A DNA stretch of 64,000 bases, from contig CM068751.1 of NCBI GenBank assembly GCA_035084275.1, positions 20,708,001 to 20,772,000 on the forward strand, written 5' to 3'. The DNA comes from Hydrolagus colliei. Lineage: Eukaryota. The position numbers and the translations under genes were made by a program. The notes beneath the pieces were generated by a model. That model saw only the letters and a list, made by a program, of their open reading frames with translations. It was not told the DNA's origin and made no database searches. This document shows positions 16,301-40,300 of this stretch, in pieces; position 1 is the first letter of the stretch, and each line of letters starts with the position of its first letter.

Positions 16301-19300
16301 GTGTGGTGTGACATTCCCTCAATTCAGAAATTGGGATTGTTTGCAGAACTACAGAACATGAGAAACCCTCGTATTCTGGAACTTAGTCTTGAGTTTTAAG
16401 AATATTTTATGGCTCATAATGAGTCAAGCACAGGAAGTGTCAACCTGGGGACTTAGACTTTGGCCAAGTTTCAGCCTGAACCAGTATCAGTAAATATCAG
16501 GGTCCACAGCCCAATGGTTTTATAATTATAGTGCAATAGAACTGGATTATACTGCGTCAACAATATACTCATTTTGAATCTAGTTGCAAGGGGTAGGAGC
16601 TAATCTCTGTCATTTGAAATGTAGCTTACCGAGTAGTCCTTCTGTTTTGTTCAGGTAATCCTCAGGTAAGAATAGTGTGAAGCTTAGCATGGCAAATTTT
16701 GCTTTTACTGTGAGTGAAATCCCTGCATCAAATGTAGCTGTGATCGTTGATCCATTCGCACTCTTTTCCAGGAAAAAAGCCCCTTCCTCATAAATCTCTT
16801 TACTGGTATCTGCAACAATGACATACATGCTCTTAATTTGTTATCGATTTTCACATATTCTGCTTTGATAAGCAAGTACCCAGTCACAAACTTATATCAA
16901 ACACATCAGTCTTGTTGGGAGGGAAGTGTAAAGCAGCTGGAAATCCCCATACAGCAGTCCCCAGAGCTCTGTCAAACCACACTGCTATACGTTTCCAAGT
17001 TTGCCAAAGTCTGTACGTTTCATTTAAATCTGTTTTGCTCTTCAGCTTTATCAACAGCTGCAAAATGATGGGATTCCTCTGTGTGTCACCAGGATGATTC
17101 TCGGCTCAAGACTCTCTTCTTCAACGGACCTCATCGGCAACTCCTGATCCCCCCCCTTCCATTCCCCCCCACCCAGTCCTCATTGTTGTTTGCTTACTCA
17201 ATAGTGTCAGAAATAATAAATTAGGCTCACCTTCAGTAAAAGCCACAAAGGTTACATTCTGGCCGTTCAGTAAGACATCAATGGATTCATTATATTTTAA
17301 AATGAACTGGACCTGCAAAGAAAGTACATATCTTTAACCTTCAAGCCATAAACTGTTGGCCGTGTTGAGTTTGTCTGCACAGTAAGATGAGAAGTTGAGT
17401 TTGATTTCACACCTAATCTTTCTGATGGATTTAGTGAGTTACAAGCTTCACATGTAGAATCAAAGCAACTCTTTACTTCTGGAGCTTGGGTTCACAAACC
17501 GCTTAATGACCCAGATTAATGGATGGAAATGAATAGTTTGGACAGTTTTAAACCTATTTGTGGTAGGTGTGTGTTCACATTTAAAAAAGGTGCAACAGGT
17601 GAGCATAAGATTGGAAATGCATTTGTACTTCTGGTTCAGAAGGCCAAATTTATTGCTGGTTTGAAATGGAAAAGTTCCCCGGCCGCAGGCTACACACTAG
17701 TTACTTTTACTAACTTCTTAAGATGTTATATTAAAAGGTTACTCACTGTGGTATTAATTGTGGACAAATACTGAGCTGCAAATGCCATGAAGTTTGTGGC
17801 TAGAGCCACACCGGTTCGTTCGGTGAGACCATGCAGCTTAAAAATGGTTTTGGTGCTGGAATCCTTCACATTGCACACTATGTAGTTACCAAGACCATTA
17901 AATGTGTAGTCCAGTCCATCCAGGGTAGTGAAGTGAGGATCTCCAAGCATCCTGCCTGCAATAATACACAGAAGCAAACTGAGGGTCCACTAATGATTAC
18001 ATCAAATACATATTAATCGGGCAAATGTTATCTCAAAGCCAGCACTTTGCATGCTCTTTCTCCTCTCCTCTCTCACTGAGGTAAAGATCATTTGCATTGT
18101 CTCCTAACTGATTCTTTCCTGGACTTCAAGATTGTGAAACTCAATTTTATTTTGTGTTTTTCAGTAAAAGTTTATATTGGATAAATGCTGCTTTACAGTT
18201 TTACTTGGTTAAACTCCAACAGGAGTCAACGCAAACTCTGGGTCCCCAAATCTTTTCTCTTGCCAACCAGCGCCTAATACTCTTTAGAATTTGGTAAGCA
18301 GTGTGTCTTTCCAGGGAAACAATTTGCATTTAATTTGAGATCTTGAGCAATTTGATGTATAGGTTGCGTACATCAACAACAAGCTACATTTATAGAGCGC
18401 CTTTCATGACTCTTAAGCATGGTGATGTGTTTCCCCTGTGTCAGACACCCAGCTGACCAAAGATAATTGTCCTGTACTTTCAAAGGGAAAATTTGCAGCT
18501 AAACGTAGAAACAGGAGAAGGCCATTCAGCCCCTCAAGCCTGTTTCACCATTCAAAAAGTTTGTGGCTGATCTGTAGCTCAAGTCCAATTCCTTCCCTTG
18601 CCCCGTGTCACTTAATACCCTGATCCAACAAATATCTATCCATCTCAGTCTAGATGTGAATGGAATGGCTATGGGGTAAGAACAGGGCAGTGGGACTGAA
18701 CGGACATATCTTTCAAAGAGCCACGATGGACCGAATGGCCTGCTTTTGTGTGGTAAGCTTCTATGATTATATGATGTTTACCAAACATCTTGTGCAAGTT
18801 TCACACTGATCCAGTGCTTTGGGACGTCCTCCTGACATGAAAGTCACTGTACAAGAAAGCATGTTGTTGTTGTTGGTGGTGGTGGTGGTGGTGGTGGGTA
18901 AGGACAGTGTAAATTTGCACAGGCAGCAATTCTAAAGTATTCCGATGAAGGATTATATTTCAGTGATCAACTTGATAGATACTTTGTTTTACGTCACATA
19001 TCATTCTTTGCAATGCTCTCTCTGTACAGGGGGGGGGGGGGCGGTATTTGAGGCCTTGGTTTCATGTTTGCAGTCTTAAACAAGACTCACTGATTTACGT
19101 CAGCAATAAAAATTAAACATGACATTTATTATGGTGTTTCATGTGCTGTAAAATTACCTGAAGCTGGTGGTGTGTATCCTTGACACGTATCCTTTGGTCT
19201 TTTCTGCTGATAATAGTCACAGAACGTTGGGTCTGCAATCTTTCCGCAGCACCAGTCGTGTGGATCTAGGTCGAATTCTATCCAGGAAGATTGTTAATCA

Positions 19301-22300
19301 ATAATATAAATTATATACTTTTGTCATGAGCAATAGATCAATAGAGAATTAATTGGGCACAGAGGGAGTAGAAGAATATTCCATAATTTCAAATGAATAC
19401 ATACGCTGGTTTTTGGTTGAGGATGTTGAATTTCTGAAGTATCTTTCCTGAAACCCTTCAATGAGTGCATTCTTTTTGTTGTAAATGCATCTCAGACCAG
19501 CATTAAATGTGTTTGGAAGAGTAGGACGGAGAAGTTTGGTTGACCCTACTATGGAAATTCAACAAGAGACATTTAGTGTTGGTCATATGTCACCAGAAAA
19601 CACACTGTGGTCTCCTGATTGATTAAATGTTACTCAGATTTTAGCTAAAATAAAGCATTGGTCTCAATACTGCAATTCAATCTGCTTGTTAGGAGCCATG
19701 TTGTTTTGTTGATTTCCATTGTGTTGCAGAGAGAAAAGTAAGATACAGATCATTCTCACTTCCATCATTGGTCAATATGTATTTAAGTAAAGTAACTGGG
19801 CAAAGGGATATTTGTAATTTCCATTCAGGATTCAATTCTAAACCAAACTAGATTAATGAGATGAAACCACCACAGCAACAACTTGCATTTATATCGCGCC
19901 CCTCACTCAGGGTAACGTCCTGGAACACTTGGCTGTGATGGAGAACACACAGAGCCTGGGGGAGATGACTGTAGGTCGGGGGGAAGAGGAAGCTGTTCAG
20001 TCTCGATCTGAAGATGGGGAATGAAAGGGCAAGGTGCAGGGATATAGGAAGAGTGTTCCAGAGTTTGGGAGCAAAGCGGCTGAAAGCGCAGCCACAGATG
20101 GTGCAATGTTGGACACGAGGGACATGCTGGAGACTGGAGCCAGTCAAGCGGAGGCATCGGGTAGTGGGTTGCGGACTGAGCAGGTCCCAGAGGTAGGGAG
20201 GGGCAAAGGCACGAAGGGATTTGAAAACAAGTGAGAGGATGTTGAAATCGATCCTTTTGGCGATAGGCAGCCATTGGAGCCCGGCTAGAACTGGTGAGAT
20301 GGTGGGTGTGGAGTTAGTTTGGGCGAGTGTGTGGATGCAGAGTTTTGGATGAACTGGATTTTGTGGATGGTGGAGCTGGGGAGAGTAGCGAGGAGACTAT
20401 TTGAATAGTCGAGGCGGGAGGTCACGAATGCAATGATGAGTGGATGAAAGTCATCTCTGCCTGTTGGCAGCAATGTGAGTTGAGTTTGGATCATTTCTTA
20501 TGGGTGTGGGCTCATACACAAAACTACTATTAATTTGACCATTTCAGTCCGAGTGGTGATAGAATATCACACTGTACAATGGAGACTGAAATCTCAGAAA
20601 GGTGTGTACAGAAGGACTGTTTATTGTGCATTTAACAGCAAAAAGTTGTATTTCCCAGGAGAATAATCACTTACCTTTAATGAGAGAGAAACAAAAATCA
20701 CCATAACATAAAAAAACTTACATTATAAACATTAAAAAAAAGATTTTTTTGAGAGATATAAAGCCAGCAATAGTAAATGATCTCATTTTTAAGCCATGTT
20801 GGAGATTTATTTTTCCATCCTTCTAACACTGTCAAGCCTGTCCTTTCAGACTGAGGGAAAATCACTCTGTAGTTTAACTGTTTCTACATTTGCTTCACAT
20901 ATGTTAATTAGTTCAAATTCAAGATTGAGTTACCTAAAGCAGTTAAGAAAGAAAAAGGAACTCGTTCTTTATCTTCAATAAACGGTTGTCGGAAACATTA
21001 CCTGATTTGAAATTCCGGAATTGTTTGTCTGGCACTCCTTGGCTAAAAGTACATGGACAGGAAAGTAAAGCCTGATTCCATTCCAATGGATCTGGTTCTG
21101 ATGTAAACCAGTTCAGACACTCTGCTTTGTAATTCCTCTGCGGACTGCCTCTAGTTAGGTTATATGCCCAGAGCCCTGTCCGACCTGAAGAGTGAAATTA
21201 AAACAGGAAAATAGTATTCAAAAGTTTGGGATTAATATTTGCAATATAAATATTCGAGTTACTGTATATAGATTTGCAATTAGAATCTGTACTACTGTCA
21301 TTTAAAAAGTATGCTATAATCGAAACTTAACTCAAGATTTTAAAAAAAAACTGTTTATGTTCTCTGTGAAACAGATAGTGAGGAAATTGTCTTTGCAAGT
21401 TCTTTGTACGGATGAACAAACCTGTATTTGTTCCCAGCTCCGTGTTTGGACGAAACCTCTTCATCTCAGGAAGATTTGATTGTTGGTCATTCACAAAGTA
21501 TCCGTCTCCACTGTAACAGAGAATAAACATTCAGGAACTATAACCTTACAGTAATTATGATGGGATGACTTGGATCGAATTAGATTTTTGAAATTATCTT
21601 TGAGCTCAGTTCAGTAGTAACCAAGCTTTTTGGTCGGCCAACCAAAGACATGTTTGTTTATTGAACATGGGTCGGGACCCGAGGCTGGGAACCACTGGGA
21701 TAATACAATATCATACTTGGGGGGTTAAAAGTACCTGTTAAAACCTATGAGAACATTTGTGGAAAGTAGCTTTGTTACGTCCCAGTTCATTCCGTCACAC
21801 TTGTATAATATGAGAACAAAGGACTGAGTGCCGTCTGTACTTAACACTGCTTGGAAGGTGTTTGTCTGAAAAACAAGATGGCAGCGTTTGTACCTGGATT
21901 GTATGGACGCTGCTCTAATACAATAGATTGTTAAACAAATGATAAAACAACATAAATAGGATATGCAAATCATAACATAATGCATCATCCCCACAGCCCT
22001 CTGCAACCTTGTCCAAGTGGTCAATGATCATGTATTAGTTCATGTTGGTGAATGTGTGCACAGGGGAGATTCAGAACAGAATCTGATCTTGGCTTCACTT
22101 TTAAAAGAGAGGTAGACGTTTATTTGGGGAGGACGGAATTGCGCGGTAACGGGGAGAGAGAGATGGGCAGTGAGATTGAGTTGCTCTTTTCAAAGAGCCG
22201 GCACAGACTCGATGGGCCAAATGACCTCCTTTTGTGCCGTAAGATTCTATGATTCTATGATTTACCCGATGCTCTAAAATGTAGAGTTTTGAGTGTCAGT

Positions 22301-25300
22301 GAATAGAGATCAGAAGTAACAGCGACAACAACAACAAAACTACATTTTTAGAGTGACTTTCACATCGGAAGGATGTCCCAAGGTGCTGTTCTTATCCTCC
22401 AAAACATAATCTGGATTTATGACTCCTTTCACTTTGGGAGAATGTCTCAGACCCCTTTATAAAGATGGAATGGGGGGAGCCTGAGCTAGGATGGAGATCA
22501 GGGGAGGGAACAGGTGATTAAATGAGCAGTCAAGAGATGGGTTTTTAGATAAGTTTTGAACACAGAAAGAGGTCAGGTAAAGGGATGTCAAAGAGTTCCA
22601 GTGAGGGCGAGAAATACACTTAACGATGGGGCAGAATGCGTGGGGCTTAATGTAGAGCAGAGTTGGTGAAACAGAGGTAGCAGGGTCACAGGAGATCAGA
22701 GGCTCAAAAACCTTTAAAAGTAAGAAGGGTGTTAATCCCGATCATCAGATCAAGCTTAAGATCTTTACTGGGTGGGGAGCCAGGGGAGCTGCCTCGGGGA
22801 AGGCTTTTCTGTTCTTTACGGCTCAAATTTGACAGAGTGTGAGGCAGGAGGACATTCAGGAGAACACATTTAGGAGAATATTACTTGTCCAATAAGTTCT
22901 TCAAAAATTGTTGGATCAGATGAAAATCCTTGAGTTGTGTATTGTTTTGGTCATTATAATTGGTGACCACTATTGATCTAACTTGATTAAAAATTAATGA
23001 ATAAGCAAAATAGTACCTCAGATGTGGACTGAGAAGCATGTACTTGATCCCAGGTTATCTTCAGGGTCCATTTTGCCTTGTATTCAATTCCAAAATACTG
23101 TTTTATCATTCTTTCTACGCTCTGTATCAAACTCTGAGATGCAGAACTGCTGGTAATGTATTCCTGTAAAATGCAAGTATATTTGTAATTAGAACAAAAA
23201 GCAAATCATCCTGACTCTCTGAATCTCCATTACTGTCCAGTGTTATCTACCTTCACAATGCTACAAGTCGAGTTACTTTCGGAATGAAATAATTTTAAAT
23301 ATTAACTACAGACAACTCACCATAGTATCGGATAATATCGATCATAGAATTACACAACACAATAACTCCACTTGTCCTGGCTGGTGTTTACATTCCACAA
23401 GTGCCTCCACCTTCCCTCTCCTATAATCCCTCTATTAATTTATCGTATATACATCAAGTTTCCTCCTCTAACATACATTCATACTCTTTGCTTCAACCAC
23501 AGGTTCCAGCAAAGATTTCCATATTCTCACTGTCGTCTGTATAGAGAGGTTCATCCTAAACTCCTGATTATTCATGCCACCTCATTTTGACTCATCAACA
23601 AATGGAACCACCTTACCAAATTGTGTCCTAATTTTGATCAAGTCGTCTCATCTTCAATCTTTCTTAGTGGCTACGTCAACTCATTCCTGGTGACATTCAA
23701 CGTAAAACTTTATACTGTAGTAGTTTTTTGTCCTTGTATCTGCTCCACTGATCTATGTATGGACTCATGCATCATATATGGTGGCTACAGGACTGTGAGT
23801 GCAACAAGGCAATCTGTTTGAGTGCACCTTCAAATTGAGCCTAATTTGGTTCTGGTTTGGAATAAAATGTTAGTTTCCCTCAATAAACATTCTGCTAGTC
23901 TAGTTTAGTTCAGTCTGTTCACAATGCAATTGATACAACTGCCCAAATGTAACACAACCTGATAGAAAATCTTTCCTCCATTTGAAAGGTGAGCGTCTAT
24001 CCAGAATGGGGCTATCATGGGGATTGTGGAAGATGCAGTAAATCCATCTGTAGGTGGATGGGTGTGATGGTAGACCTCGGATTCCGATGGTGGGAAAACT
24101 ATCAGTCCATTGTCTGTAAACTGGTAAAAACAACAGGAAACGTCACCACAAGCAGGTTAAATAATATAATTCAATACAATTGATCCAGATCTTTTGCACA
24201 CTCATTTCCTCCCCGCATTAATAATCCTATAATAATAATCCTTGCATTTGATACAGCGCTTTTCACACCTTCTAGACGTCTCAAAGCACTTCACAGAATA
24301 TACTATCAATTGACCTGTCTGTATATATGTGGCAAAACGCAGCAGCCAGTTGCACACAGCAGTGATCCATACACAGTCATTGATTGAAATAACCAATTTA
24401 TATATTTTTTGAGGGATTATTATTATTTAGGCGTGCAGAGTAAAGAAACTTACCCAGGTTTTGCCCTGCCTGGAATTGAACCCAGGCCTCTTGCTTGTAA
24501 GTGAGTACTCTAACCACTGAGCTACAGGACTCCACCATCTGATTGTATGACTTGACATCATCAGCAATAATATTGCAGTAAATATTCTGCCGGATTCTTT
24601 GTGTGTAATGTGAACAGGAGTGGAACCAATGCTGACTCAAATACAACTCTCCTGGTCACTCCTTTCCAAAAAGCTATTTTCACTGAGATTTCCCATCAGT
24701 GAACCAGATTGCAGAAGGCTACTTTGCCATGAATTATTCTAATTATAACATCTAGTATTATTATTATTAATTGCAAGAGCTGTGACCTTCCTCTGTATTC
24801 CCCACAACTTTCTCAAATTCTTTCCGGTTGAAATCGTTACATCACTCACATAAAGTAAAGACTGGAAGCTTTTTCCAAAAGGAAAGCCGATCTCTGGCTT
24901 GAAAACACCAGATGTGATATCAGGATTCATTGTAGTTATTGCTGTGTCTCCAAAAGTCATTCCATAATCCAAAAGTATAGGACCTGCAACAACCAAGTAT
25001 AAGTAAGACATGATATGATTGAGGACCAATATATTCCCAAGGTAAAATCAAACTTGAAAGTAAAACTATTTGACATTTGCGTTAAAGAAGCTGGGAAACC
25101 ACAAATAAAGTTGGCTGATTTGGGATGGTTTGATTGATTCAATGCTTAGTTGACATGGTTTGTTTTTCAAATGCCCAACCAAATGAGGCTTTTTTTTAAA
25201 AAAACACAGGTGAATTGAACCAGAGATGATTACATTCTAAACTGGGCTGGGAACAAGATAGCTGTAATGGCATTAGCAGTCTGAGAACATAGTATATCTT

Positions 25301-28300
25301 TCATATCTGTGATTTGTTTAAACTTTTTTAAAAAAAGTATTTTTAAAAAAGTATTTTTCTCGCTTATCTGACCACTGAATAATTAAAGCTTCTTATCCTG
25401 TGAGAAGAAGGGAAGGAGAAGAGCTTGAAGAGGTTTGGGGATACTTGCTCTTTGAATTGGTGGATGAATGGCCTCTTGCTGTACTTTAGATTCCAATGTG
25501 TGCTTGTTTTTTATGTTGTATTAAATGGATTTGTGAATATTCCCGCCATTGGTTGCAATCAAAGATTTATGCAAACATTTCAGTCTGAATTTCTGGGGTG
25601 TTAGTGGTGGTGCTGTTAAGTCACATGTGATTATCTGGCGTGCAGAGATTCAGTGTTGTTCTATATTAATACAGTATTTAAAGCCCAAATTTGTAGGGAG
25701 AGGAATATTGAGGAGAGTGAGGAATTCCTCAGTTTTGAGTTTCTGGGGAAAAATTGACTTGAGCATAGTCAGGACAACAGGCCTGGGTTTCAACAGTGAA
25801 AATGCAGGAAAGAGGAGATAGTGTAGGATATCGGGTTAGGAAAGTACAGAGGAAGAATAATCACAGCCTTTATACTTGGGACAGAATAACCAGGACTAGC
25901 TGGTGTGGATTGATAGGTGAGCACAGACTGAACACAATGTATGGAAAGATTCATTTCAATTTGCCAACAAAACTGAAAATTCTTACATCCAACAACGAGG
26001 GTACTTGGCAGGGTAGTGGTCGGAGTTGTTGTTGTTGTTGCTGTGGTGGTGGTGGTGGGTGTTGTTGTGGTGGTGGGTGTTGTTGTGGTGGTGGGTGTTG
26101 TTGTGGTGGTGGGTGTTGTGGTGGTGACTGTCGTGCTTTGGGAGGTGGGTGCTCCTGAAGAGGTGGTGGCTGATGTTGAAGAACTGATGGCTGCTGTACT
26201 TGCGGGTGAAGAACTGATGATTGGTGCTGCTGTTGTGGTTGAAGAACTGATGATTGGTGCTGTTGTGGTTGAAGAACTGATGATTGGTGCTGTTGTGGTT
26301 GAAGAACTGATGATTGGTGCTGCTGTTGTGGTTGAAGAGCTGATGATTGGTGCTGCTGTTGTGTGTGAAGAACTGATGGCTGGTGCTGCTGTTGTTGCTG
26401 TTGTGGTTGAAGAACTGATAGCTGGTGCTGCTGTTGTTGCTGTTGTGGTTGAAGAACCGATGATTGGTGCTGCTGTTGTGGTTGAAGAACTGATGATTGG
26501 TGCTGTTGTGGTTGAAGAACTGATGATTGGTGCTGCTGTTGTATGTGAAGAGCTGATGACTGGTGCTGCTGTTGTGTGTGAAGAGCTGATGACTGGTGCT
26601 GCTGTTGTGTGTGAAGAGCTGATGATTGGTGCCGTTGTGGTTGAAGAACCGATGATTGGTGCTGTTGTGGTTGAAGAACTGATGATTGGTGCTGTTGTGG
26701 TTGAAGAACTGATGATTGGTGCTGTTGTGGTTGAAGAACTGATGATTGGTGCTGTTGTGGTTGAAGAACTGATGATTGGTGCTGTTGTGGTTGAAGAGCT
26801 GATGGCTGGTGCTGCTGTTGTGTGTGAAGAGCTGATGATTGGTGCTGCTGTTGTGTGTGAAGAACTGATGATTGGTGCTGCTGTTGTGTGTGAAGAGCTG
26901 ATGATTGGTGCTGCTGTTGTGTGTGAAGAACTGATGATTGGTGCTGCTGTTGTGTGTGAAGAACTGATGATTGGTGCTGCTGTTGTGTGTGAAGAGCTGA
27001 TGATTGGTGCCGTTATGGTTGAAGAACTGATGGCTGCTGTACTTGTGAGTGAAGAGCTGATGGCTGCTGTTGTGAGTAAAGAGCTGATGGCTGGTGCTGC
27101 TGTTGTGTGTGAAGAGCTGATGATTGGTGCTGTTGTGGTTGAAGAACTGATGGCTGCTTTACTTGTGAGTGAAGAACTGATGGCTGCTGTACTTGTGAGT
27201 GAAGAACTGATGGCTGCTGTACTTGTGAGTGAAGAGCTGATGGCTGCTGTTGTGTGTGAAGAGCTGATGGCTGGTGCTGCTGTTGTGTGTGAAGAGCTGA
27301 TGATTGGTGCTGTTGTGGTTGAAGAACTGATGGCTGCTGTACTTGTGAGTGAAGAGCTGATGGCTGCTGTTGTGAGTAAAGAGCTGATGGCTGCCGAGGT
27401 GGTGCTTGTGTTTGTGGAGACTGTTGTGTGGTTTATGTTTGCTCCAGGAGTGGTTGGTACATTTGTGGTCACATTTCCTACAGGAGTGGTGGTGTCTAAA
27501 CAAGAAAGGAGGAAGCAATATACAAGGTGTGACAATCACTTCTACTGCGGTTTATGGCCCATGTTGTTGCTGTTGTTAACTGTGGATAGCATAACAGGTA
27601 GGACTGTGTTTGACCTGAAATTAACAAACATCAAGTTCCCTTCATTCCGCAGCTTTAGGAACAAGGCACCATCAAGAGGTTTTGGGTGAAGGACATATGC
27701 AGAAGAGGTTTGGATTGAAACCAACCTGCAACCCAACTTTCCTCTAACTGTCACTGCAATGACATAATAATAATAATAATCCTTGCATTTAATATAGCGC
27801 TTTCCACATCTTATCAACGTCCCAAAACGCTTCACAGAATATACTGTAAAGTGAATTGACTGTATATATTTGTGGGCGAATCGCGGCAGCCAATTGCGCA
27901 CAGCAGCGTTCCCCCCACACACACACAGCCGTGGATTGAAACGACCAATTTTACTATTGTGGTTTTTTTTTTGGAGGTATTATTATTATTAGGCGTGTGT
28001 GTGGGGTAAGGAAACTTGCCCAAGGTTTCGCCCTGACCTGCCTGGATTCGAACACAGGTCTCCCCAGCTTGGTCTCCCCAGCTTGCAAGACAAATGCTCT
28101 AACCACTGAGCCATAGGAGCTCCACAACTTTCCTCTAACTGTCACTGTAATGATCATTGGAGATAAGAACTTGTGAAAAAAAACCAACATGATATACTTT
28201 CATCCCCAAATATAATTCATTCAAACTCTGGGAAGGGGAGAGATTATACCTAGGCTGAAGGCAGAGCTGGTTTAAAGCATAGGTGTGGCGGAGAAAATAC

Positions 28301-31300
28301 AGTTGAGGATCGAAATACAGTTGAGGATTGAGAATCGAAGTAGTTATGACCCTACTAGGCTCATGACTGGCTCGTTGAGGTGGATGTGAAATGAAATACA
28401 AATGTAAAACAATTGGTACTTGCGCATGTGTTGATCGAGAACAATCAAGAAACCGCTGATCAAGAAACAAATTCGGTGGCGAGTTAGAAAGGTCATTGAA
28501 ACAAAAGTCAACCTGCTTTATGATTGTAGTGAAAAGATCAAACGCAAGGCTGGGCTGTGCTAGTAAAGGTAAAAACTGCAATATCAAAAATATCCCATAA
28601 TAATGGATTGGTTAGATTTCACCCAGAGTACTGTGTGCGATGTTTGCCATCAGAGATTAGTTGCTAATATTGACCTTGACAATGTCAGTGAGGAGATTGA
28701 AGGCTTTGTTTGCAGACTGGTGTTATTTGAGAAACGCAAAGTTTATGAATTAAGATGACTCAGACTCACCGATGCACACAATCCCATCTCCAGAATATCC
28801 AGCTAAGCATTGGCAAGTGTACGAACCGTCTAGGTTAGAGCAGAGGCCGAGAGTTTTGGAACAGTTGTTTGTTCCCGCCGGCGAACATTCATTGATATCT
28901 GTAGGTCGAATTTTCAGATATAATTAAACTAATATCAATGAAATCTCTCATAGCGCTTGTTAAAAAAAAATAGAAGAATAAAAGAGATGTAAAATCAAAA
29001 CAACAACATGCATTTATATACAGCCCGACACACAGGATAATGTCCAGGATAGTGGCCAGTGTCAGGGTGGGATGCTAAGCATGGAGAATTGTGTGTGTAT
29101 GGTGGGGGGTAGGGGCGGGGTGCGGGGTGCTAAGCTACAGTGACCAGTCATATAGAGGAATATAAATACCAATGTGTCATGAGGCACATTTTTGATGGGC
29201 AATGATATTGAATGAAAACAGTTTGTAATCCATGTGTACCTTTGCATATCCCACTGACATTCTCAAATCCACTTCTGCATTCACATTTGTAAGAAGCTTC
29301 GGTATTAACACATAATTGCCCCGTCTCAGTGCAATTTTGGATGTTTTGACATTCATCAATATCTAGAAAAAAGAGCAAAACAAAATAATTGCATTTAATC
29401 AGAAAAACGTTCCCGAGTCCCTACATATATTGTTCTTTCAACAGAATGTGACATTTATCTGAGTACAGTACAGTATTAAGGATGTATTTTCACAGTTGCA
29501 CTCAACTGCTGATACCTTCTTTGACTTCTAGGTTGTAAAGATTTTGTGTACTTCAAAATGTTTAATGATATTTTCATCATCTATAGTATTGAAGATATTA
29601 GAGTAGAATTTTTCTTTGTCAGATTTTGTGAGTGACAAATATGTGGCACTGTCTTAGATTGATGAGTTTCCCTTATCCTGCTGATAATTTACAGTTTAAT
29701 GTTTACCAGCTTCAAAGTGTGTGAGCTAGAAAGTAATGATGTATTAGATTAGTGCGAAAATATTTTTAATTGATGTGTTAACAGAATGTGTTACTCAGAA
29801 GCAGTGCACAAAAATAATGAAACTTATAGCTTGAACTACGTTTAGTGTTTTCCTTGATGACATTGAGTCTTTAGTTGTGCAAACATCAGCTCCGACAATT
29901 GAAGAGAGTTCAAAGTAACCTAGTTGAGATTTCCCAAATAATAAAGGGATTTATCAAGGTGCCTCCAACAATTGTTTTCGCTGTGGTAAGGAATTAGCAA
30001 GTTGGGAACAGAGAGAGAAGTTTGGCACTAAACTGTTTTTCAAATATTTGTAGGTTTGTGCAATTAATTAGCACTTAAGCAACAACAGCAATTTACACTT
30101 GTATAGAACCTTTCATTGCTGAGAATAAAGTCTATAAGTGCTTCACAGGGCACCCAACATGGGGTGAGGGGGGGAGTAAGGAGCATCAGGGAAAGAGAAT
30201 GATCAAAGGTGAGGAGGGGGGAAACGGCGTTGGGAAAGGATGTGGTGGAGAGACTCCAGGATGGAATTCCAGAGACCAGGAGTTACAAAGTGTTTGAAGA
30301 CTTTGACGATGATAAAACAGTGCATCAAATGTAAGGATCATTAGTGAATAAATACACAAAAATTGTCAATTTTTTAGTGGAAATGCAACAAATATAACCT
30401 AACGCTTATCAATATTCTAAAATATTAGCTAAACACAGTTGATGCACAAATTTGACTTTGAGTAGATTTAGTGAACATGAACATGATAGAATTAGTAAAA
30501 TAAGTAAATTCCAGTCAGCAAACTGTTGCAGTGTGATATGTATCCCGATTTTCGATGTATTGCATGAGACACCCACAATGAAACAATCATCTCTTCAGTT
30601 ACCTTGGCAAGTACCATTCACCCTTTCATATCCAGCAACACATATGCAGGTATAATTTCCAAAGCTGTTTTCACACTTCTGTTTGGAAGGACATGTTCCA
30701 GAGGACTCTGCACACTCATCGATATCTGCGACATCACAAGACATGTTTCTTATTAAAATTCATAACCTTTTTCAAAATACTCGCTGGACTCACCGATTAG
30801 GTCAAGTCAATATGTTTTGTTTAAGTTTCATTGTAAATTAGTATCTAGGTATTACCTTTCAACCATTATCTCCGATTTGAGGGGATTTGCGCATCATTAA
30901 TATAGGAAAAGATTTTCTGGCTAATTGATTAGAAGCTGCTCTTCTGATTCTCTACCTTAAACCCTTTCCCTACTTTCTCCCTCATTAAATACCTCCTCAT
31001 TCTTTCTCCACCCCCCCACCCACCTCCCACACACACAAACACATACACCTCTCCCATTACTCTCCTCACAATATGTTTCTATTAGACTATAAACCATACC
31101 TTCACAGAATGTTCCATTTCCCCGGAATCCAGACATGCATGCACATGTAAACGAGCCATCTGTGTTGTTACAGGCTGCCATGTTGTGACAGTTGTCCTGA
31201 AGTTTGGCACATTCGTCAATATCAGTGCAGTTGGTATCCTCGTATCCGGTTTTACACGTACACATGTACGAGCCCACGGTATTCACACAATCCGAATTCA

Positions 31301-34300
31301 AGACACAGTTGCCCCGATTTGACTTGCATTCATCGATATCTGTTTCCAATTAAAACGAGGCAACAGAAATAATATGACTTCAAAATTATTGGTTCGATTT
31401 AATCAACCTCCTCCTTACTGCTCTAGCATTCCCCTCTGTCATTACTGGGCTTTGACCACTCTGGTTTCACTTCCAGGTATTTGAAGCGTTATGGAAAGTG
31501 GATTTTGGTATTGAAAGGCACAACACCACAAAGTTACAGTAATACACTGCAGAATGTTAGAACCACACCAATGCCTGCCGCAAGATCATTGCTGGATCCA
31601 CCCACACCTTCAAGGAGGTTGATAATTTTTTGGCATTAAGGGATGGGGGTGGGGGAGAAAGTGGGAAATTGGAATTAAAAGGATTAATAAAGATACAGAT
31701 TAGCCATGGTGTCGGAAGAGACTCAACAGGCTGAATGCTCTACTCGTGTTCCTATGTTCCTATTTCTCCCAGGTATCAAGTCTTATATAAAAACATATTT
31801 CTCACCTGCACATTGAAGTCCTTCGTATCCCTGTAGACAGGTACAGTGAAAAGATCCATTGGTATTGTTACAAATTGAATTGTTGATGGCTGAACAGTTA
31901 TTGGTTCCAAGGCACTCATTAACATCTGAAAGAAGAACAAGAGAAAACAGCGGAGGTGATTTTCATTCCAGGCATGGATTAGAACAATCGTCAGTGGTTC
32001 GTGTGATTTGGAGAGAGCGTCAGCAAACTGAAGGAACATGTGCTGTGGCCACAAATTTCCCAATAAAAGTGATGGGTTGACAGTGAAACGAATGCCAATT
32101 AATATTCTTCATACCATCTATGCTGGAAACCTAGAAATAACAATAACTTTGTGATGGATGTTACACTATTGTATAGATATGGGATGTGAACTTTCCACTC
32201 AGGCTAGGTTTGCACACCGCTCAGGGTGATGAGATGGACCTTTGTTTTGTCCCCAATAGCATAACAGCCCCCAGTTGGCAGCTTAAACCCAGTTTCCAGG
32301 AGCCTGAATGTTAGGAATAGGGAAACCCTATTTGAAGCCAGAGCTTCTCTTACGTTTATATAGAGGAGATAGGTCTCAAGGTATGTTTTAATCACCGTGA
32401 TTGGACTCTCAGTGGTATTACTTGCATCCCATAAGTTACACGATTCCATAAAAAGTTTTTGCACGTGTGGCAAGGCTATGGGAAATTTATTTGCTATCTC
32501 TGAATCCCAAATATACCCAAATGGTCATGAAGTCGCCTGATGATCAAATTCATCTTCGAGCCTCAATCACTTTTTGCATCAAGGAGATTGCGAATAGCTT
32601 TCCAACGCCTTAAAATTGATGATATGTATTATAGTTGTTTCACCAAATGTTAGTTTATCCTTCTAACAGGAAGTAAATAGCCAATGTAAAAGCCATTAAA
32701 AATCAAAACATGACATTCAGCACTTTCAGCTTGTCACCACATTTCATGCCTCAGGTATCCAAATATAAATATCACTTCATTGTAAACTAATATTTAAAGA
32801 ATCAAATAACCTATTTTGTTTACATATTAAATGGTAAAATTCAAAATATAGTCAGGATATTGTACCAATGCAGAATTGATGCGGCTCGCCATCGTATCCA
32901 GTCTTGCAAGAACAAGAATAGTTTCCTATTATGTTGTTACAGTCTGCGTTCAGGGGACATGTGGAAGCATTGTTGCATTCATTAATGTCTGAAAAACAAA
33001 TAAAATGGGTCATTACCAAACTGTGTTTTCCTCAAGAAGCTATTAGGATTCATGGCAACTGTAATGATTAAAGGTTAATTCTGTTCATGTCATATCATTA
33101 TAGATTTATATTTATAGTTGACCTGTTTCTATTTCAGTTGCAAAGAAATGTTTTGAAGAAGAACTATAGACAGAGAAGCTTGAAGGTGTTCAGATAGTCA
33201 AAAAATATTGCATTCATACCAATACACAGAGAGCTGTTGCTCTGGTCGACCTCATAACCCTCATTACAGCTGCAGTTGTATCCTCCGAACACATTGGTGC
33301 AGATTTGTTGACAAGAGGAGATGTTCTCCAGACATTCATCGCGATCTGGAACCAACAAAACAAAAGTAAAAGATGTTGCAGCCAGCAGTCCTCTTGTTGT
33401 CAGGTGTAAAGGCAACAGGTTACCTGAATGCTATCCCAGGAACATCAAAAACAAGTCACGACTTGAAGAAAATAACTAAAGTAAACATTAATTTGGGTGT
33501 AAAAGATACAAGTGCACTGTAAGTGGTGAGGTTGTAAATTATATCTGATGATGTTAACAATATGGTGGAAGCAAAGGCAACAAAACAAGAAGAGATTATA
33601 TTTGTATCGCTCATTTCATGTCAGGAGGTTGTCCCAAGGTATTGGGAGATCAGGGATATGGATCGGGGGGTGGGTGGAGGGCATGGAGGATAGGGCCCTA
33701 TAGGAGGATGGCTGAAGCTATGGTCAAAAAGGAGTTGTCTTCAGACGTGCTTTGAAGGAGGAAAGGGAGAGAAAGCAAGGAGAAGGGACTGGGATTGAGT
33801 TCTATAAGGAAGGGGCCAGAGAGGATGAAGACCTGACTGCCAATGGAGGGTTGGGCTGGGTGGTGGATGTGGGGGGGGGGCACTGGCCAAATCCTTATTT
33901 CACCCTGAATTACAAATGTCATTTTGTTGTAGATGTTCTTAATTTCATAGGAAAACTTGAAAAGAAGCAGAGAACGCTAAAATAATTGCCCAATGGTGAA
34001 ATCTACAGTCAATACTGTGCGACGCATTGACGTGAAAGTTACCACACAAAATACAAGGATTATTATTACTTCATCAGAACAGAGATTTCTGAAACCCAGA
34101 ACCATCTTGGTACAGCTGTTTTGTGTAGATCATTATCACCTGAGGTTAAGTATCACACTTCTGTCTGTGCAATAATTTAAAAAAAACATTGTGAGGTTTA
34201 GTCAGTATTGTATTTATTTTGATGAGAGTGAAAGTTCGTGGTCCTTACCAAAACACTTCAAACCATTTCCTTGCAAATTATCTGGACATGGATCACAGGT

Positions 34301-37300
34301 ATAACCCTCGAGTGGGGCAGGGTTATCTTTGCAAGTGTCGTTCAGGAAACACTGATTATCTTCACAGCCATCAAAATCCTCTGTGCAGTAATCCCCAGTA
34401 TACGCGGCACTGCAGTTACACATCGAGACCTGGATTAAAAATAGGTGTTTATATATTAGGATTCCATTGGAAGAATTATTTTTTCTCTAGTCATTTCATA
34501 GGAATTCGCCTGTATCTTAATCCCAACAGTAGAACATTGTCCTCCCACAAAACCTGGGGAATAATGTGGAATTAGCATAACGGCCAAGAATTACAACTCA
34601 AAACGCAAAGATATATACCTGGGCTGCTCACTGTAAATTAAAATCAACGTAGACAAATGCTTGGTGGCACACGGATGGGAAAGAACTTTGTAAAGCTACA
34701 TTTCAGAATTTATATAAAGCCTCGATAAACCACATTTGAAGCTCTGTGTCCAATTCTGGTCGTCAGACTACAAGAAGAATATAACAGTGATGGAAAATAT
34801 GCAGTGTAGGTTTACTAGGGTGATACCAAGGTTCTTCCTATCAGGACATACAGGTTAATTTAGAGACACAGGATAAATAGATTGGACGTTTTTTCACTGG
34901 AGTGAAAATGTTTGAGGGTTTATGTTTACCTGTTAGAGGTATTTAAAATGATAAAAGGCTTCCATAATGTTAGCATAACTAGTCTATTCCTACTTATTGG
35001 TGAGTCTGTAACCAGGGCACACAGGGGTAAGCTAGTGGCTCGGGTTTGTAAAAAAGAATAAACGAGAATTTCTCGCAGAGAGTAGCGAGAATTCTCAGAA
35101 GCAGTGGTTGAGCAATGCATAGCATATCAGAAGAAGCCAGATATGTACACCAGAGATACGTGAATAGAGGGAGGGAGTAGGGAGTGGGTGGAGAGTCATG
35201 TGGACTATAACCAGCAGAGTGGACTAGTTGGAGAAGCGTCTGTTTGCGTGCCACACAGTCAATTCAGTCTATATAAGTGGAAGTTGGAAATGTAAATGCA
35301 AAAGTCGACAAGTTGCTTTCCATTCTCAAACAGTGTGAGGCACCAATTTACAAAGTGAACACAATATTGGACTACATTCCTCAACAAAATGAGATATAAA
35401 TCTCCAAATATCTTTGCTCACAATCAGCAAAGGAGGAGAGAGGAACCTGGGTTAATAGCTCAGGTATTTTCCATCAGCAACATCCCACAAAGAGCCATGA
35501 AATTAATTTATTTTATTTTTAGGGGATTATCGGCCATGAGCAGGGGTGGGGAAAAGGTGACCGAAGACGCGGTCGAAAAGAAAGGTCTTTAGCCGAGACC
35601 TGAAACTAAGAAGAGAGAGGTGGGTGAGGAGAAGGGAGTGAGGAAGATATCCAAAGCTCTGCTCAGGCCAAGGCAAGTAACCAATGAAGAAAGAGGCAAG
35701 AATTCAGTTGAGTTTCACCTTTGGGTCACCTGGAATCTTAGGTCAAATTAATTACTGCTGCAGCTGTTGTTAACTGGTGACATTAACAGTGGCCAGCTTG
35801 TTAAGGTGCTGTCACGAGTTGCTTTGTCAGCCAGTGAACCAGCAGGAAAACGGAGGCCGAGTCACATTTTGTGTTTGGATTCACAACGGAATCTTCACCC
35901 ATTCTCAACCACAATCTCTTCAAATGACAGTTTTTTTTAAAATTTCAAACTGTTTCTTACATTCTACCTTACCTGAAACAAACTGTTATTGTTGTTAACA
36001 GTCAGGATTGAATTGGAATAATCACAGGTTGAGTTGATGCTGCAGTTACACAACTTCAGGGTCAATCCCAACTCAGCCACAGCTTTTGAATCATTGGCTT
36101 GCACAATAGCAAACACAGGGTCACCACTCGTTGGATGCCAAGTGAAGTTTCCATTTTCTATAAGATTAAGAGCGGAGATGTTTTGCCTGATTTACAGAAA
36201 CTCTATATGTTCAAATACAATAAGAAAGCAATTCTATCGCGGTGTCAAAGGAACTAAACATATTTTAAAACATTTTTCCCCCCCCCCAAAAAAAACTTCT
36301 TGCCCAAGGACGCTGGTAGACACACACCCCCCCGAGTAGATTAAACTGTCATTCTTTAAATGCCAGTGAATTCTGTCAAAATACTGTTAGAGTGAAAACT
36401 ATCACAGCAAAGACTCATGTCTACCTCAGTTAGCAATGTCCTTAACAACACTTTCCAGCTGGAGTCACTGATGAAACACCGAGATGAGGAGCTCTGCCTG
36501 AATATCTTCCTCTACATCGAGCAACTGACTCCAAACACAATGGAAATACACCCAGGACCTTACTGTAAGTATGTGTTGGAAGGCACACTTTGCCATCTAA
36601 ACTGTTAAGCTTCAGAGGCCAAACTTGCTTGAAACATGTCCAGCGTTTCTCGCGCCTCTCGTACTCAGGTTTATCTAAAGCCTAGCTTCACAGTAGACAC
36701 ATAGAGTGTAATTAGCTCTGATAGTTAACAGGGTAATGTTTGAAAAGAGTATCCTGATTGGGATCACATGTTTATTCCAGAGCTATAATTTTATGAGGCA
36801 AGTGATTAAAGGACCAATTCTAAAAACAAAGAAATAAATGTCTACAGTTCTGATAATACTTCAACGCTAGGCTGAAAATGGCATTATATTGATGCAGGTC
36901 TAATATCCTAATTGCTGTAATAATGCAATGATGTATTCATAAGTTTAAACAGAATTAATTTGAGGTATTTTTTCAATCCAATGGCAACTGATTGAATTAA
37001 TTAAAAATTAGAGCTCTGAACATTATTCACAAATTGTTGGTTCCCATAGATATTCACTACAGAATGGTAATAGACCAGGGCATTGGAGAGAGGGAAATGG
37101 GGCAGCGTAAATAAAGATCTTCTGCGAATGGACTTGAAGTTCACTGTTGGTGCAAAGTGGAAGGTCTTTAAGATAGCATCTGATCCTATTGGTTTTGGAG
37201 TGCCTTGATTTATTTGTCATGGTTGGTTACATTGGAAAAGGATTCCCTTTCCCCCCAAAACATCTTTCACCTGCGCGATCGCAAAGTTGACCAACAACAG

Positions 37301-40300
37301 CTTGGATTTACATAGCGCCCTCACTCCACTCCAGACAGCGTCTCAGAGCGCTTCACAATAACAGATCCCGGGCCACGGTGGAGGGGAAAAAATGTGACCG
37401 AAGGCGCGGTCGAACAGATCAAACCCATCGCAGAATGCGGAATGCAAACACATATGATAAAATCATTGGTACCTGTGATAGTGATATCTGTAGAATTAGT
37501 CAGCACTGAAAATGTCACCTTATCGTCATTGGCATCAGTGGCAGTAAACAGAAAGTTTACCTGCTCGTCAAGACGGGTTTGAAAAGTGGTCATTCCAGTG
37601 ATGTTGGGTGGGAAATTATCTGTGGAGTGTTCACAGTTACTATTCACATTGCCANNNNNNNNNNNNNNNNNNNNNNNNNNNNNNNNNNNNNNNNNNNNNN
37701 NNNNNNNNNNNNNNNNNNNNNNNNNNNNNNNNNNNNNNNNNNNNNNNNNNNNNNNNNNNNNNNNNNNNNNNNNNNNNNNNNNNNNNNNNNNNNNNNNNNN
37801 NNNNNNNNNNNNNNNNNNNNNNNNNNNNNNNNNNNNNNNNNNNNNNNNNNNNNNNNNNNNNNNNNNNNNNNNNNNNNNNNNNNNNNNNNNNNNNNTGTTC
37901 TGAAATTAAAACAAATGAAAATGCGGAATTTTGTCAATGTGTAAATGCTAATACTGTAGCGCGGTGAAATATTTAAGGCCAAAACTTACATTTATACCGT
38001 TCAAAGTGCTAATGCGATACTTTGCAGGGCAGTGACAAGCCACTAACTCTCAGCGTACGGCACTGAGATCTGTTTTTTGGTGATTTATTTTGGATATACC
38101 TGTCGAGTATCATTTGATACACTTACTCATTGTACTATTCTGTGCTGCAAAAGTTGTGACACTTTGCAAGGTCGCTGCTCCAAAAGAAAAGTCGTCTGTA
38201 CTTAAAATATCAAAAATGCAATCATCATTCGCTTTGCAGGTTTCATTCGCTTTGTCAATTTTCTGTTTATCTGTCGTTTGCAACAGTTCATCGTAAAACT
38301 TGGGTACGAAGCTATTGTTGTTGTAGGTGTACCAGTCATCTCCGTTGTATGTAAACAGGCTGTTGTTCTCGGTCGTTTTCCCTAAAAGATGTTTGTGACA
38401 AATTTATAAGAACATAAAGTAAGAAATGAGTACACGTAGAGATGATTCCCATCTCCAGCCTTTACCCACTGGGCCGTTGGAGAGCCTCAAAAATAGCTTC
38501 TAAAGTATACCGTTTATTGCCTTACATGTCAAGCCAAAATCAAAGAATATCTCATTGTCGCTGGGCAACTGTTTCCCGTCGTAGTTGAGATACGTTCCAT
38601 TCGCAGCTTTGAAGTCGTCTGTTACGTCATCGTTCCAGACACCTGGACACAGATGGAGGAATGGCAGCACATCAGAAGCAAATATTAATTTCTGAATGTG
38701 ATTCTATTGATGCGTACTTGTAATTATCTATAATTATCCCTGTGTTTGAAGCGCTCTGAGACCCCGTCCGGCGTGGAGGACGCTATATAAATGGAAGTAG
38801 TTGTTGTTGTTGTTCTATATCTCCGATATTCTTAGACATCTCAAGGCACTAAAAGTGAATTTGAAATTCAAAAATATGGATGTAAATTGTCGTTGTGGCT
38901 CCTTTTCACTGAGTCTTTAAAGCAGGAACCAGACATTCCAAAGTTATACTCCTGCGACAATAGCTTCAGCGGAAGTTTCCAAATGATTGGCGATTACGTA
39001 ACTAGCTCTACCGCTAAAGATATACCGCACTGTAAGTTGGAAAGTACATCTTACCTAAGAGTCCTTCAGTGTTGTTTTTTAAATCGTTATCTAAGGAGGT
39101 GGTGAAAGTTAGAGCCCCCTTTCTTCCTGAAACTGTCACCGATGTTCCGCCTTCAAACGTCGCCACTGTCTCATTGTTGCTGACCTGCAGGGTTACTTGA
39201 TTGATGTAAGTTGAATTCTCTGTAAAGGACAAAGATCACAGACAGAGTTCAATGTTGACGCATTCAAATAATGGAATAAAGTATTTTCGCTTGTGCTATG
39301 AATGGAATAGCACAGTCTTCTTCAGATAAAATCAAAGCACTCTTAAGGTCATAACATAATTCTGTGGAAAATGCAAACTTAGTTTGGTTGGCAATCAACT
39401 GTAAAATCTAATAATGTTTCAGATCCACATTTTAAGGAGTAAATACTTTGCTATATTTGCTTGTTGTACGTATGCAGACTGCGAGTTGACTGTGTGTGAA
39501 GGAGGGCAACCGTGAACTGACATTTCACTTACCTGTGACATTCACAGCCGATCCATCCACAAACACGTTAATCTCCTCATCACCAACAAGATTCCACTGA
39601 ATCTGAAGGAAGACATTCACATATGCACTTGCAGTCGATCAAACACAAAATATGACATATTTGTCGAGGCAAAAATAAACATTTCCTTCCTTGCCTCTCT
39701 TCTCTTAGCAACAACATGGTTTAAAGAGTAAATTTCCCGCTGCTTTAGTGTCAATCATTAAGAAAGAAGAAAATGGAAAGACTAGTAATTTTGGTATAAT
39801 CTGATAGACACAAGCACTATCTAACCTTCACCACAAAGTTCACAGATAGTCATAGTAATGCTGGAAAAATTGTTCATTTCCTTCCATGCCTTTCCCTATC
39901 CGAGCAATCTTGTTCCCGATTAAATACTTATCTCCTTAAGATAGCGCTGCTGTTAGATTTCAGCGCGTTTCAGTTATCTCGCACAACAGTAGTTAAGCCA
40001 ATCAAAGAGCAATGTGCGTCATCTACTGTCATAGCCACCCATCGTTACCTTAGATCCACCTGGTCCTTGAGCTGCCAGGGCTACAAAGTTGGTTGCCTCA
40101 GACGTCATGTTTTCCCCGGCTCGCAAGGTTCTTCCCTGGAGAGCAAATACCACTGTATCGTTTTCATCTTTCACATTTAACAGGATAAACTCGCCCAGAC
40201 CATTGAACGTGTACTTTACATTGTCCAGCGACACCACGTGAGGGTCTCCAAAGAAGAAGCCTGTGAACAAGGTTAGGAATCATTTACTGGGTATAGTTGT

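What the first reader, a model, noticed from the sequence alone, without database searches (positions are those of the whole stretch)
17933..40249. Two intact GDPH autoproteolysis sites predict a three-chain mucin with a releasable middle subunit
Seen: [11 protein letters not shown] (40238-40249) and [11 protein letters not shown] (17933-17944). Known: MUC4 is cut at GD/PH into alpha and beta subunits. Inference: cleavage would give chain A (PTS array, FN3, EGF, NIDO1, AMOP1), chain B (VWD1, EGF array, PTS, NIDO2, AMOP2) and membrane chain C, allowing staged shedding. Keeping both motifs despite strong divergence of the cassettes suggests selection.
Basis: partly seen in the sequence, partly recalled or inferred. 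Interest (0 to 1): 0.7.

Follow-up and report, generated by a model that had tools for sequence, protein, structure and literature searches.

The report
Double-cassette ancestral MUC4 mucin
This cartilaginous-fish gene is a doubled MUC4 mucin with two intact cut sites, a layout shared with shark, ray and amphibian gene models; it is likely cut into three chains predicted to stay clasped together, and bird and mammal MUC4 likely kept only the inner half.

Summary
Both GDPH motifs are real (minus strand), each just inside a VWD exon. A hand-built 63-exon model gives one 3,554-aa open frame with two 16-exon NIDO-AMOP-VWD cassettes, 33% identical, with the same intron phases. No RNA was available to confirm the splicing. 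The layout is not peculiar to this genome: 18 of 18 two-cassette vertebrate database proteins (sharks, rays, chimaera, amphibians, lamprey) keep both GDPH. In trees, each cassette forms its own jawed-vertebrate clade and the single cassette of bird and mammal MUC4 nests in cassette 2. Two cuts and three chains are therefore likely. A freely released middle chain is not shown. In a cassette-1 homologue model the strand before the cut is VWD strand beta-1, and cleavage stabilises such a domain in FCGBP, so motif conservation need not mean shedding. No cysteine staples either junction, so release stays possible. Verdict: observation confirmed, interpretation partly supported. It is a new architectural variant of MUC4, and the evolutionary point is the stronger result.

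The parts
2079..54993 (-). Modelled coding region, 63 exons, 3,554 aa, from the first FN3-like exon to the cytoplasmic tail (first and last exons not placed)
   Evidence: All AG/GT, no stop; collinear with two-cassette proteins P0024, P0025, P0027, P0030
55200..64000 (-). Inner end of an array of S/T/P-rich phase-1 mini-exons (about 288-bp period) that runs on about 55 kb beyond the window; N-terminal mucin region of chain A
   Evidence: Tandem repeats; crude count of 20 candidate exons in the window and about 150 (about 5,300 aa) in the whole array
47397..54993 (-). Two FN3-like exons and nine EGF exons (chain A)
   Evidence: tblastn of shark proteins; weak Pfam fn3 and strong EGF hits in those proteins
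34249..46746 (-). Cassette 1: NIDO1, AMOP1, VWD1, C8-3 and following exons (16 exons, 880 aa)
   Evidence: jawed-vertebrate cassette-1 clade
40238..40249 (-). GDPH site 1; predicted A/B cut, new N-terminus [10 protein letters not shown]
   Evidence: aligned position of FCGBP D10 Pro4081 and RGMB residue 169 in a homologue model
28770..33345 (-). EGF array of chain B (7 phase-1 exons)
   Evidence: matched between VWD1 and NIDO2 in 18 of 18 two-cassette proteins
25987..27495 (-). Single large PTS exon, 503 aa, 62% S/T/P (chain B); same position as the mucin region of bird and mammal MUC4
12395..24983 (-). Cassette 2: NIDO2, AMOP2, VWD2, C8-3 and following exons (16 exons, 799 aa); the cassette that groups with bird and mammal MUC4
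17933..17944 (-). GDPH site 2; predicted B/C cut, equivalent to the MUC4 alpha/beta cut
8752..11801 (-). Four EGF exons of chain C, three of them recent 1.2-kb tandem copies
   Evidence: Self-BLAST 94-98%; model
3456..7788 (-). Juxtamembrane region, last EGF and transmembrane helix (helix in exon 3644-3456)

Best explanation
The gene is a MUC4 orthologue with two NIDO-AMOP-VWD cassettes and two intact GDPH motifs, likely spliced into one precursor that is likely cut at both Asp-Pro bonds into three chains predicted to stay clasped without disulfide bonds. Shown: the motifs, the open frame under canonical splicing, the same layout in other vertebrates, and no cysteine in the strand before either cut. 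Inferred: each VWD is cut as it folds in the secretory pathway, as in FCGBP. The last strand of the upstream chain (beta-1) stays in the sheet of the downstream VWD. The mature molecule is then a non-covalent A-B-C stack: A (giant PTS array, FN3, EGF, NIDO1, AMOP1), B (1,645 aa: VWD1, EGF array, PTS, NIDO2, AMOP2) and membrane chain C (at least 935 aa). The motifs are kept mainly because each domain needs the cut to mature. Loss of A, or of A plus B, under force or unfolding is possible but secondary. The duplication likely predates the split of cartilaginous and bony vertebrates, and bird and mammal MUC4 likely kept only PTS plus cassette 2.
For: One open frame, 63 of 63 exons canonical. No likely signal-peptide exon in the 1.27-kb intron between the EGF array and the PTS exon. 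VWD1, EGF array and NIDO2 in this order in 18 of 18 two-cassette proteins; partial shark models P0017 and P0018 also run from the EGF array into PTS and cassette 2. Both GDPH in 18 of 18. Asn at D+14, the place of FCGBP Gln4094 that assists cleavage, in 18 of 18 cassette-1, 18 of 18 cassette-2 and 8 of 8 amniote rows (PMC10880436 results). Homologue model: strand 303-308, GDPH turn, strand 312-314, block pLDDT 82-90; Pro311 aligns with FCGBP D10 4081 (Z 17.6, rmsd 3.0, 177 aligned) and RGMB 169. No Cys at -9..-1 in 0 of 36 cassettes. Cassette clades at SH-aLRT 99 and 100; AU tests reject amniote + cassette 1 (p 1e-4) and window c1 + c2 (p 4e-4). ACK1/TNK2 lies next door; that it neighbours human MUC4 is recalled.
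Against: Cleavage was not observed here; everything is by homology. Recombinant MUC2 with an intact GDPH stayed uncut (PMC10880436 discussion). The supporting database proteins are automatic gene models, and many relatives are annotated as separate halves. The cassette-2 model is unreliable at the site (block pLDDT 33-37), and the cassette-1 model is of a ray protein that lacks part of AMOP. Without a disulfide, the same paper says cleavage could in principle fragment the protein, and PMC6696261 states that the MUC4 N-terminal fragment is secreted after the cut. The AU groups were named after the tree was seen. The search that found two-cassette proteins would under-sample copies with a decayed cassette.
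Confidence: 0.62

Rival explanations
1. Staged shedding: both cuts are release points, so chain A leaves first, then chain B as a soluble mucin, and C stays in the membrane.
For: No cysteine in beta-1 at either site, and VWD1 is cysteine-free in 18 of 18, unlike FCGBP, whose fragments are disulfide-held (PMC8267560 abstract). Chain B has no transmembrane segment. PMC6696261 states that the MUC4 N-terminal fragment is secreted after the cut. The beta-1 strands differ by cassette: aromatic and conserved in cassette 1, variable in cassette 2, so the two clasps could differ in strength.
Against: Beta-1 is part of the VWD sheet, and cleavage stabilises the FCGBP domain (PMC10880436). MUC4 is described as a heterodimer (PMC6780288 passage). 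SUSD2 fragments stay at the cell surface (PMC6696261). Single-cassette relatives keep GDPH just as strictly, so conservation does not point to ordered release.
Confidence: 0.2
2. The two cassettes are rarely in one protein: alternative splicing or a second promoter makes single-cassette forms, each a normal two-chain MUC4.
For: The EGF and PTS exons are all phase 1, so a skip from 28770 to 11801 keeps the frame. Shark proteins P0001 and P0008 join cassette 1 straight to a membrane end. Many relatives are annotated as halves.
Against: P0001 and P0008 look like a separate paralogue: their C-terminal half is 45% identical to the same species' cassette-2 protein (P0008 vs P0020). The joined form is in 18 models from 17 species. 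Cassette 1 has no membrane exon of its own here, and no signal exon was found before the PTS exon.
Confidence: 0.1
3. Only one site is cut, or cutting is partial, and the other GDPH is kept as a structural turn.
For: Recombinant MUC2 D4 kept an uncut GDPH (PMC10880436). MUC4 cleavage may need a protease (PMC6696261) that could prefer one site.
Against: All GDPH-bearing VWD domains of FCGBP are cut (PMC8267560 abstract). Both sites share D+7 Asp, D+13 Phe, D+14 Asn and D+15 Gly with amniote MUC4.
Confidence: 0.08

Closest known systems
MUC4 / rat sialomucin complex (ASGP-1, ASGP-2)
   Same: PTS, NIDO, AMOP, VWD with GDPH, C8-3, EGF domains, transmembrane helix; cassette 2 groups with bird and mammal MUC4 at about 40% identity.
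   Different: A second, upstream cassette with its own GDPH; FN3 and long EGF arrays; two mucin regions, the outer one in mini-exons; longer cytoplasmic tail; three predicted chains instead of two. 26 of 26 bird and mammal proteins with a VWD had one cassette.
FCGBP (multi-GDPH VWD protein)
   Same: Several GDPH cuts in one precursor, at the same structural position.
   Different: FCGBP fragments are held by a disulfide in each VWD (PMC8267560). Here beta-1 has no cysteine and the protein is membrane-anchored, with NIDO and AMOP.
SUSD2
   Same: AMOP-VWD with a cut GDPH in a type I membrane protein (PMC6696261).
   Different: One site, fragments disulfide-linked, no NIDO or PTS. Not compared by sequence here.
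Unnamed two-cassette 'mucin-4-like' or 'uncharacterized' gene models of sharks, rays, Callorhinchus milii, amphibians and lamprey (P0024-P0041)
   Same: Same domain order and both GDPH; C. milii is the nearest row for both cassettes.
   Different: Automatic annotations only; no description of the doubled layout was found in the papers searched. The two lamprey cassettes are sisters, not one of each type.

Membership tests
MUC4 | NIDO domain followed by AMOP and VWD | tested here: met
   Pfam NIDO and VWD twice in close homologues; NIDO exons of both cassettes hit in G000; exons collinear
MUC4 | AMOP domain by profile | tested here: inconclusive
   Pfam AMOP returned for 0 of 9 proteins scanned, cat MUC4 included; 8 cysteines align with amniote MUC4
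MUC4 | GDPH at the start of a cysteine-poor VWD | tested here: met
   the window's VWD2 carries one extra cysteine at +23
MUC4 | PTS mucin region directly before NIDO | tested here: met
   503-aa exon, 62% S/T/P, before NIDO2
MUC4 | C8-3, EGF domains and one transmembrane helix after the VWD | tested here: met
MUC4 | Orthology by tree and neighbourhood | tested here: met
   Cassette 2 clade with bird and mammal MUC4; ACK1/TNK2 neighbour (the human neighbourhood is recalled)
MUC4 | Single cassette, two-subunit product | tested here: not met
   Two cassettes; this is the variant feature
MUC4 | Signal peptide at the N-terminus | tested here: inconclusive
   Not found by tblastn with homologue N-termini in 200 kb upstream
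MUC4 | Actual cleavage at GD/PH and O-glycosylation | not testable with these tools
   Needs protein work
FCGBP-type disulfide-held VWD repeats | Cysteine in strand beta-1 that staples the cut fragments | tested here: not met
   0 of 36 cassettes have Cys at -9..-1

The most novel reading that the evidence does not exclude
The ancestral jawed-vertebrate MUC4 was a three-tier detachable coat. Two non-covalent beta-strand clasps of unequal strength let a giant outer mucin, and then a middle EGF-rich mucin, be shed in order. Birds and mammals kept only the inner clasp. This fish has amplified the whole gene into several near-identical copies.
Probability: 0.2. Interest if true: 0.72.

Novelty: new variant of a known kind. 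Interest (0 to 1): 0.5.

Why it matters
It recasts human MUC4 as likely the inner half of an older two-cassette mucin that aquatic and amphibious vertebrates still carry. It also pushes vertebrate MUC4 back beyond Xenopus, the deepest case named in PMC4948705 for the 2007 survey. The purpose of GDPH cleavage is called unknown in PMC10880436. A protein with two disulfide-free sites in series is a natural test of whether the cut is a maturation step or a release point.

Tried and rejected
RNA: no RNA holder listed. Run X1 covers introns continuously and so behaves as DNA; it says nothing on splicing. The complex prediction of the two sides of cut 1 was not available, so binding of the chains was not modelled. 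The deep HMMER search of representatives was also not available, so bony-fish and reptile coverage is thin. No ray-finned fish appeared among the 15, 8 and 63 hits, which is weak evidence of absence. The cassette-2 structure model is inconclusive at the site. A sequence search of PDB with P0016 found only mouse FCGBP, so no solved MUC4-type cassette was seen. A species-specific duplication of the cassette was rejected. A hidden signal exon between the cassettes was not found. Rows dropped before the count of two-cassette vertebrates: P0006 and P0051 (one VWD split into two profile hits) and P0085 (three weak hits, no GDPH). Three invertebrate two-cassette proteins were counted apart. Earlier scan notes: nothing. 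PMC1222983, PMC2835492 and PMC2042186 are not held; they may already mention non-mammalian Muc4 layouts or the composition of the shed form. No supplements were opened.
Full report
OBSERVATION. The window holds exactly two GDPH in six frames, both on the minus strand, at 40238-40249 and 17933-17944. Two such motifs arise in 10 of 200 Markov simulations, so the motif alone proves little. I built a gene model by hand from tblastn matches and splice-site scores. The final model has 63 exons from 54993 to 2079, all with AG/GT ends, and gives one 3,554-aa frame without a stop. The window's N stretch lies inside an intron of this model. Cassette 1 (46746-34249) and cassette 2 (24983-12395) each have 16 exons, the same phase at 16 of 16 positions, and 33% identity. 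Cuts at both Asp-Pro bonds would give A (974 aa from the first FN3-like exon, plus an upstream PTS array crudely put at 5,300 aa), B (1,645 aa, 173 kDa before glycans) and C (935 aa in the model, last exon not placed).

ONE GENE OR TWO. This was the main risk, because relatives are often annotated as halves. The cassette-1 exon found 15 proteins with one cassette each, and the cassette-2 exon found 8 proteins, 5 of them cartilaginous-fish. A search of proteins of 2,371-5,000 aa returned 63 hits. Of these, 18 vertebrate proteins from 17 species (7 cartilaginous fishes, 10 amphibian proteins, 1 lamprey) have two cassettes, and 18 of 18 have GDPH in both. In 18 of 18 the order is VWD1, EGF array, NIDO2. 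The intron between the last EGF exon and the PTS exon is 1.27 kb, phase 1 on both sides, with no convincing signal-peptide exon. These are automatic models and no RNA run was listed, so one precursor is likely, not shown. Shark proteins P0001 and P0008 have cassette 1 and a membrane end but no cassette 2. They appear to be a separate paralogue (P0008 vs P0020, 45%).

EVOLUTION. A tree of 64 cassettes puts all jawed-vertebrate first cassettes in one clade (SH-aLRT 99) and all second cassettes in another (100). The 8 bird and mammal MUC4 rows fall inside the second, and both window rows are sister to Callorhinchus milii, so the animal is probably a chimaera (quick search, no bootstrap; long invertebrate branches flagged). 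On 24 of the 64 rows, rooted on two hemichordates, AU tests reject amniotes with cassette 1 (p 1e-4) and the two window cassettes together (p 4e-4); both groups were named after the tree was seen. All 26 bird and mammal proteins with a VWD have one cassette. The neighbouring gene is ACK1/TNK2; its place beside human MUC4 is recalled, and the orientation here is tail to tail. Inference: the duplication predates the split of cartilaginous and bony vertebrates, and amniote MUC4 is the PTS exon plus cassette 2. The two lamprey cassettes are sisters, so lamprey duplicated or homogenised on its own. Two sea-urchin proteins and one brachiopod protein also have two cassettes with both GDPH.

THE SITES. 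Among 36 jawed-vertebrate cassettes from two-cassette proteins (window included), 48 of 581 well-filled columns are invariant and GDPH is the only run of four. The residue at D+14, Gln4094 in FCGBP, whose mutation partly blocks cleavage (PMC10880436, results), is Asn in 36 of 36 and in 8 of 8 amniote rows. No cassette has a cysteine in the nine residues before the motif (0 of 36). The first 180 residues after the cut are cysteine-free in 18 of 18 first cassettes and 16 of 18 second cassettes; the window's VWD2 has a lone cysteine at +23. An AlphaFold2 model of a ray cassette-1 protein (P0005, 32-row alignment, part of AMOP missing) has a strand at 303-308, the GDPH turn and a strand at 312-314 with block pLDDT 82-90. 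It matches VWD-C8 assemblies (best Z 26.2, rmsd 2.6, 236 aligned), and its Pro311 aligns with the post-cut first residues of FCGBP D10 (4081) and RGMB (169). The cassette-2 model (P0016) is unreliable at the site.

HOW IT LIKELY WORKS. By homology, each VWD is cut at Asp-Pro during folding. In FCGBP the Asp and His are needed, all sites are cut in the ER, and the cut stabilises the domain (PMC10880436, results and discussion read; PMC8267560, abstract). The strand before the cut belongs to the sheet of the downstream domain, so A would hang on B and B on C by one strand each, plus any AMOP-VWD contact (not modelled). With no disulfide the clasps can in principle open (PMC10880436 discussion), and PMC6696261 (passages) states that the MUC4 N-terminal fragment is secreted and that uncut precursor is degraded. 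It also reports a serine-protease step for MUC4, against pure autocatalysis. MUC4 is called a heterodimer in PMC6780288 (passages) and 'putatively' cleaved in PMC8660890 (passages). I put a clasped three-chain complex, with the cut as a maturation step, at 0.62, ordered shedding at 0.2, mostly single-cassette isoforms at 0.1 and one uncut site at 0.08.

LITERATURE. Nine full-text searches turned up no description of a two-cassette or three-chain MUC4 in their listings or in the papers opened. PMC4948705 (passages) names X. tropicalis as the deepest Muc4-like case in the 2007 survey. PMC9080433 (passages) describes single NIDO-AMOP-VWD mucin4-like proteins in cnidarians. PMC10707392 (passages) lists no MUC4 in shark skin mucus. 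PMC9578598 (passages) added nothing. Three older key papers could not be read, and subscription journals are not covered. The layout is visible in public gene models.

VERDICT. Observation confirmed. Three chains are likely; release of the middle chain is open. It is a new variant of a known kind. Interest 0.5, mostly for the likely two-cassette ancestry of MUC4.

Noticed in passing
G000:C18, about 137 kb beyond the window (L008-L013); C298:1957-2094: The whole gene has a tandem copy about 99% identical, with both GDPH, 11 silent and 24 amino-acid-changing codon differences, fewer EGF repeats and a different, shorter PTS array. A further NIDO1 exon lies on contig C298. In run X1, long contigs have depth 153-199 over the mucin and 26-31 over TNK2, a hint of about 5-6 copies; contig depth is not a copy number.
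   Followed up: partly
window:55200-64000 and L001-L006: About 62 kb of S/T/P-rich mini-exons with a 288-bp period, crudely about 150 exons and 5,300 aa. The signal-peptide exon was not found.
   Followed up: partly
P0068, P0070, P0072-P0076, P0078-P0080: 9 of 9 snake and lizard 'mucin-4' models, and one cormorant model, end just after AMOP with no VWD or GDPH. This is either a split annotation or a gene that encodes the alpha-like chain alone.
   Followed up: no
P0001, P0007, P0008: Sharks have an apparent paralogue with cassette 1 only, the mirror image of amniote MUC4. No such separate gene was found in G000 (4 matches only).
   Followed up: partly
window:43394-43530: NIDO1 has a single cysteine kept in 16 of 18 first cassettes and absent from second cassettes and amniotes; a possible free thiol or cross-link.
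   Followed up: no
window:4659-7102: A juxtamembrane domain that may be a divergent SEA fold (recalled, not tested; no Pfam SEA hit). It shows no GSVVV-like cut motif, so a third cut is not expected.
   Followed up: partly
L020 and L019 (about 185-200 kb beyond the window end): Another gene with a long tandem array of EGF exons on the same strand.
   Followed up: no
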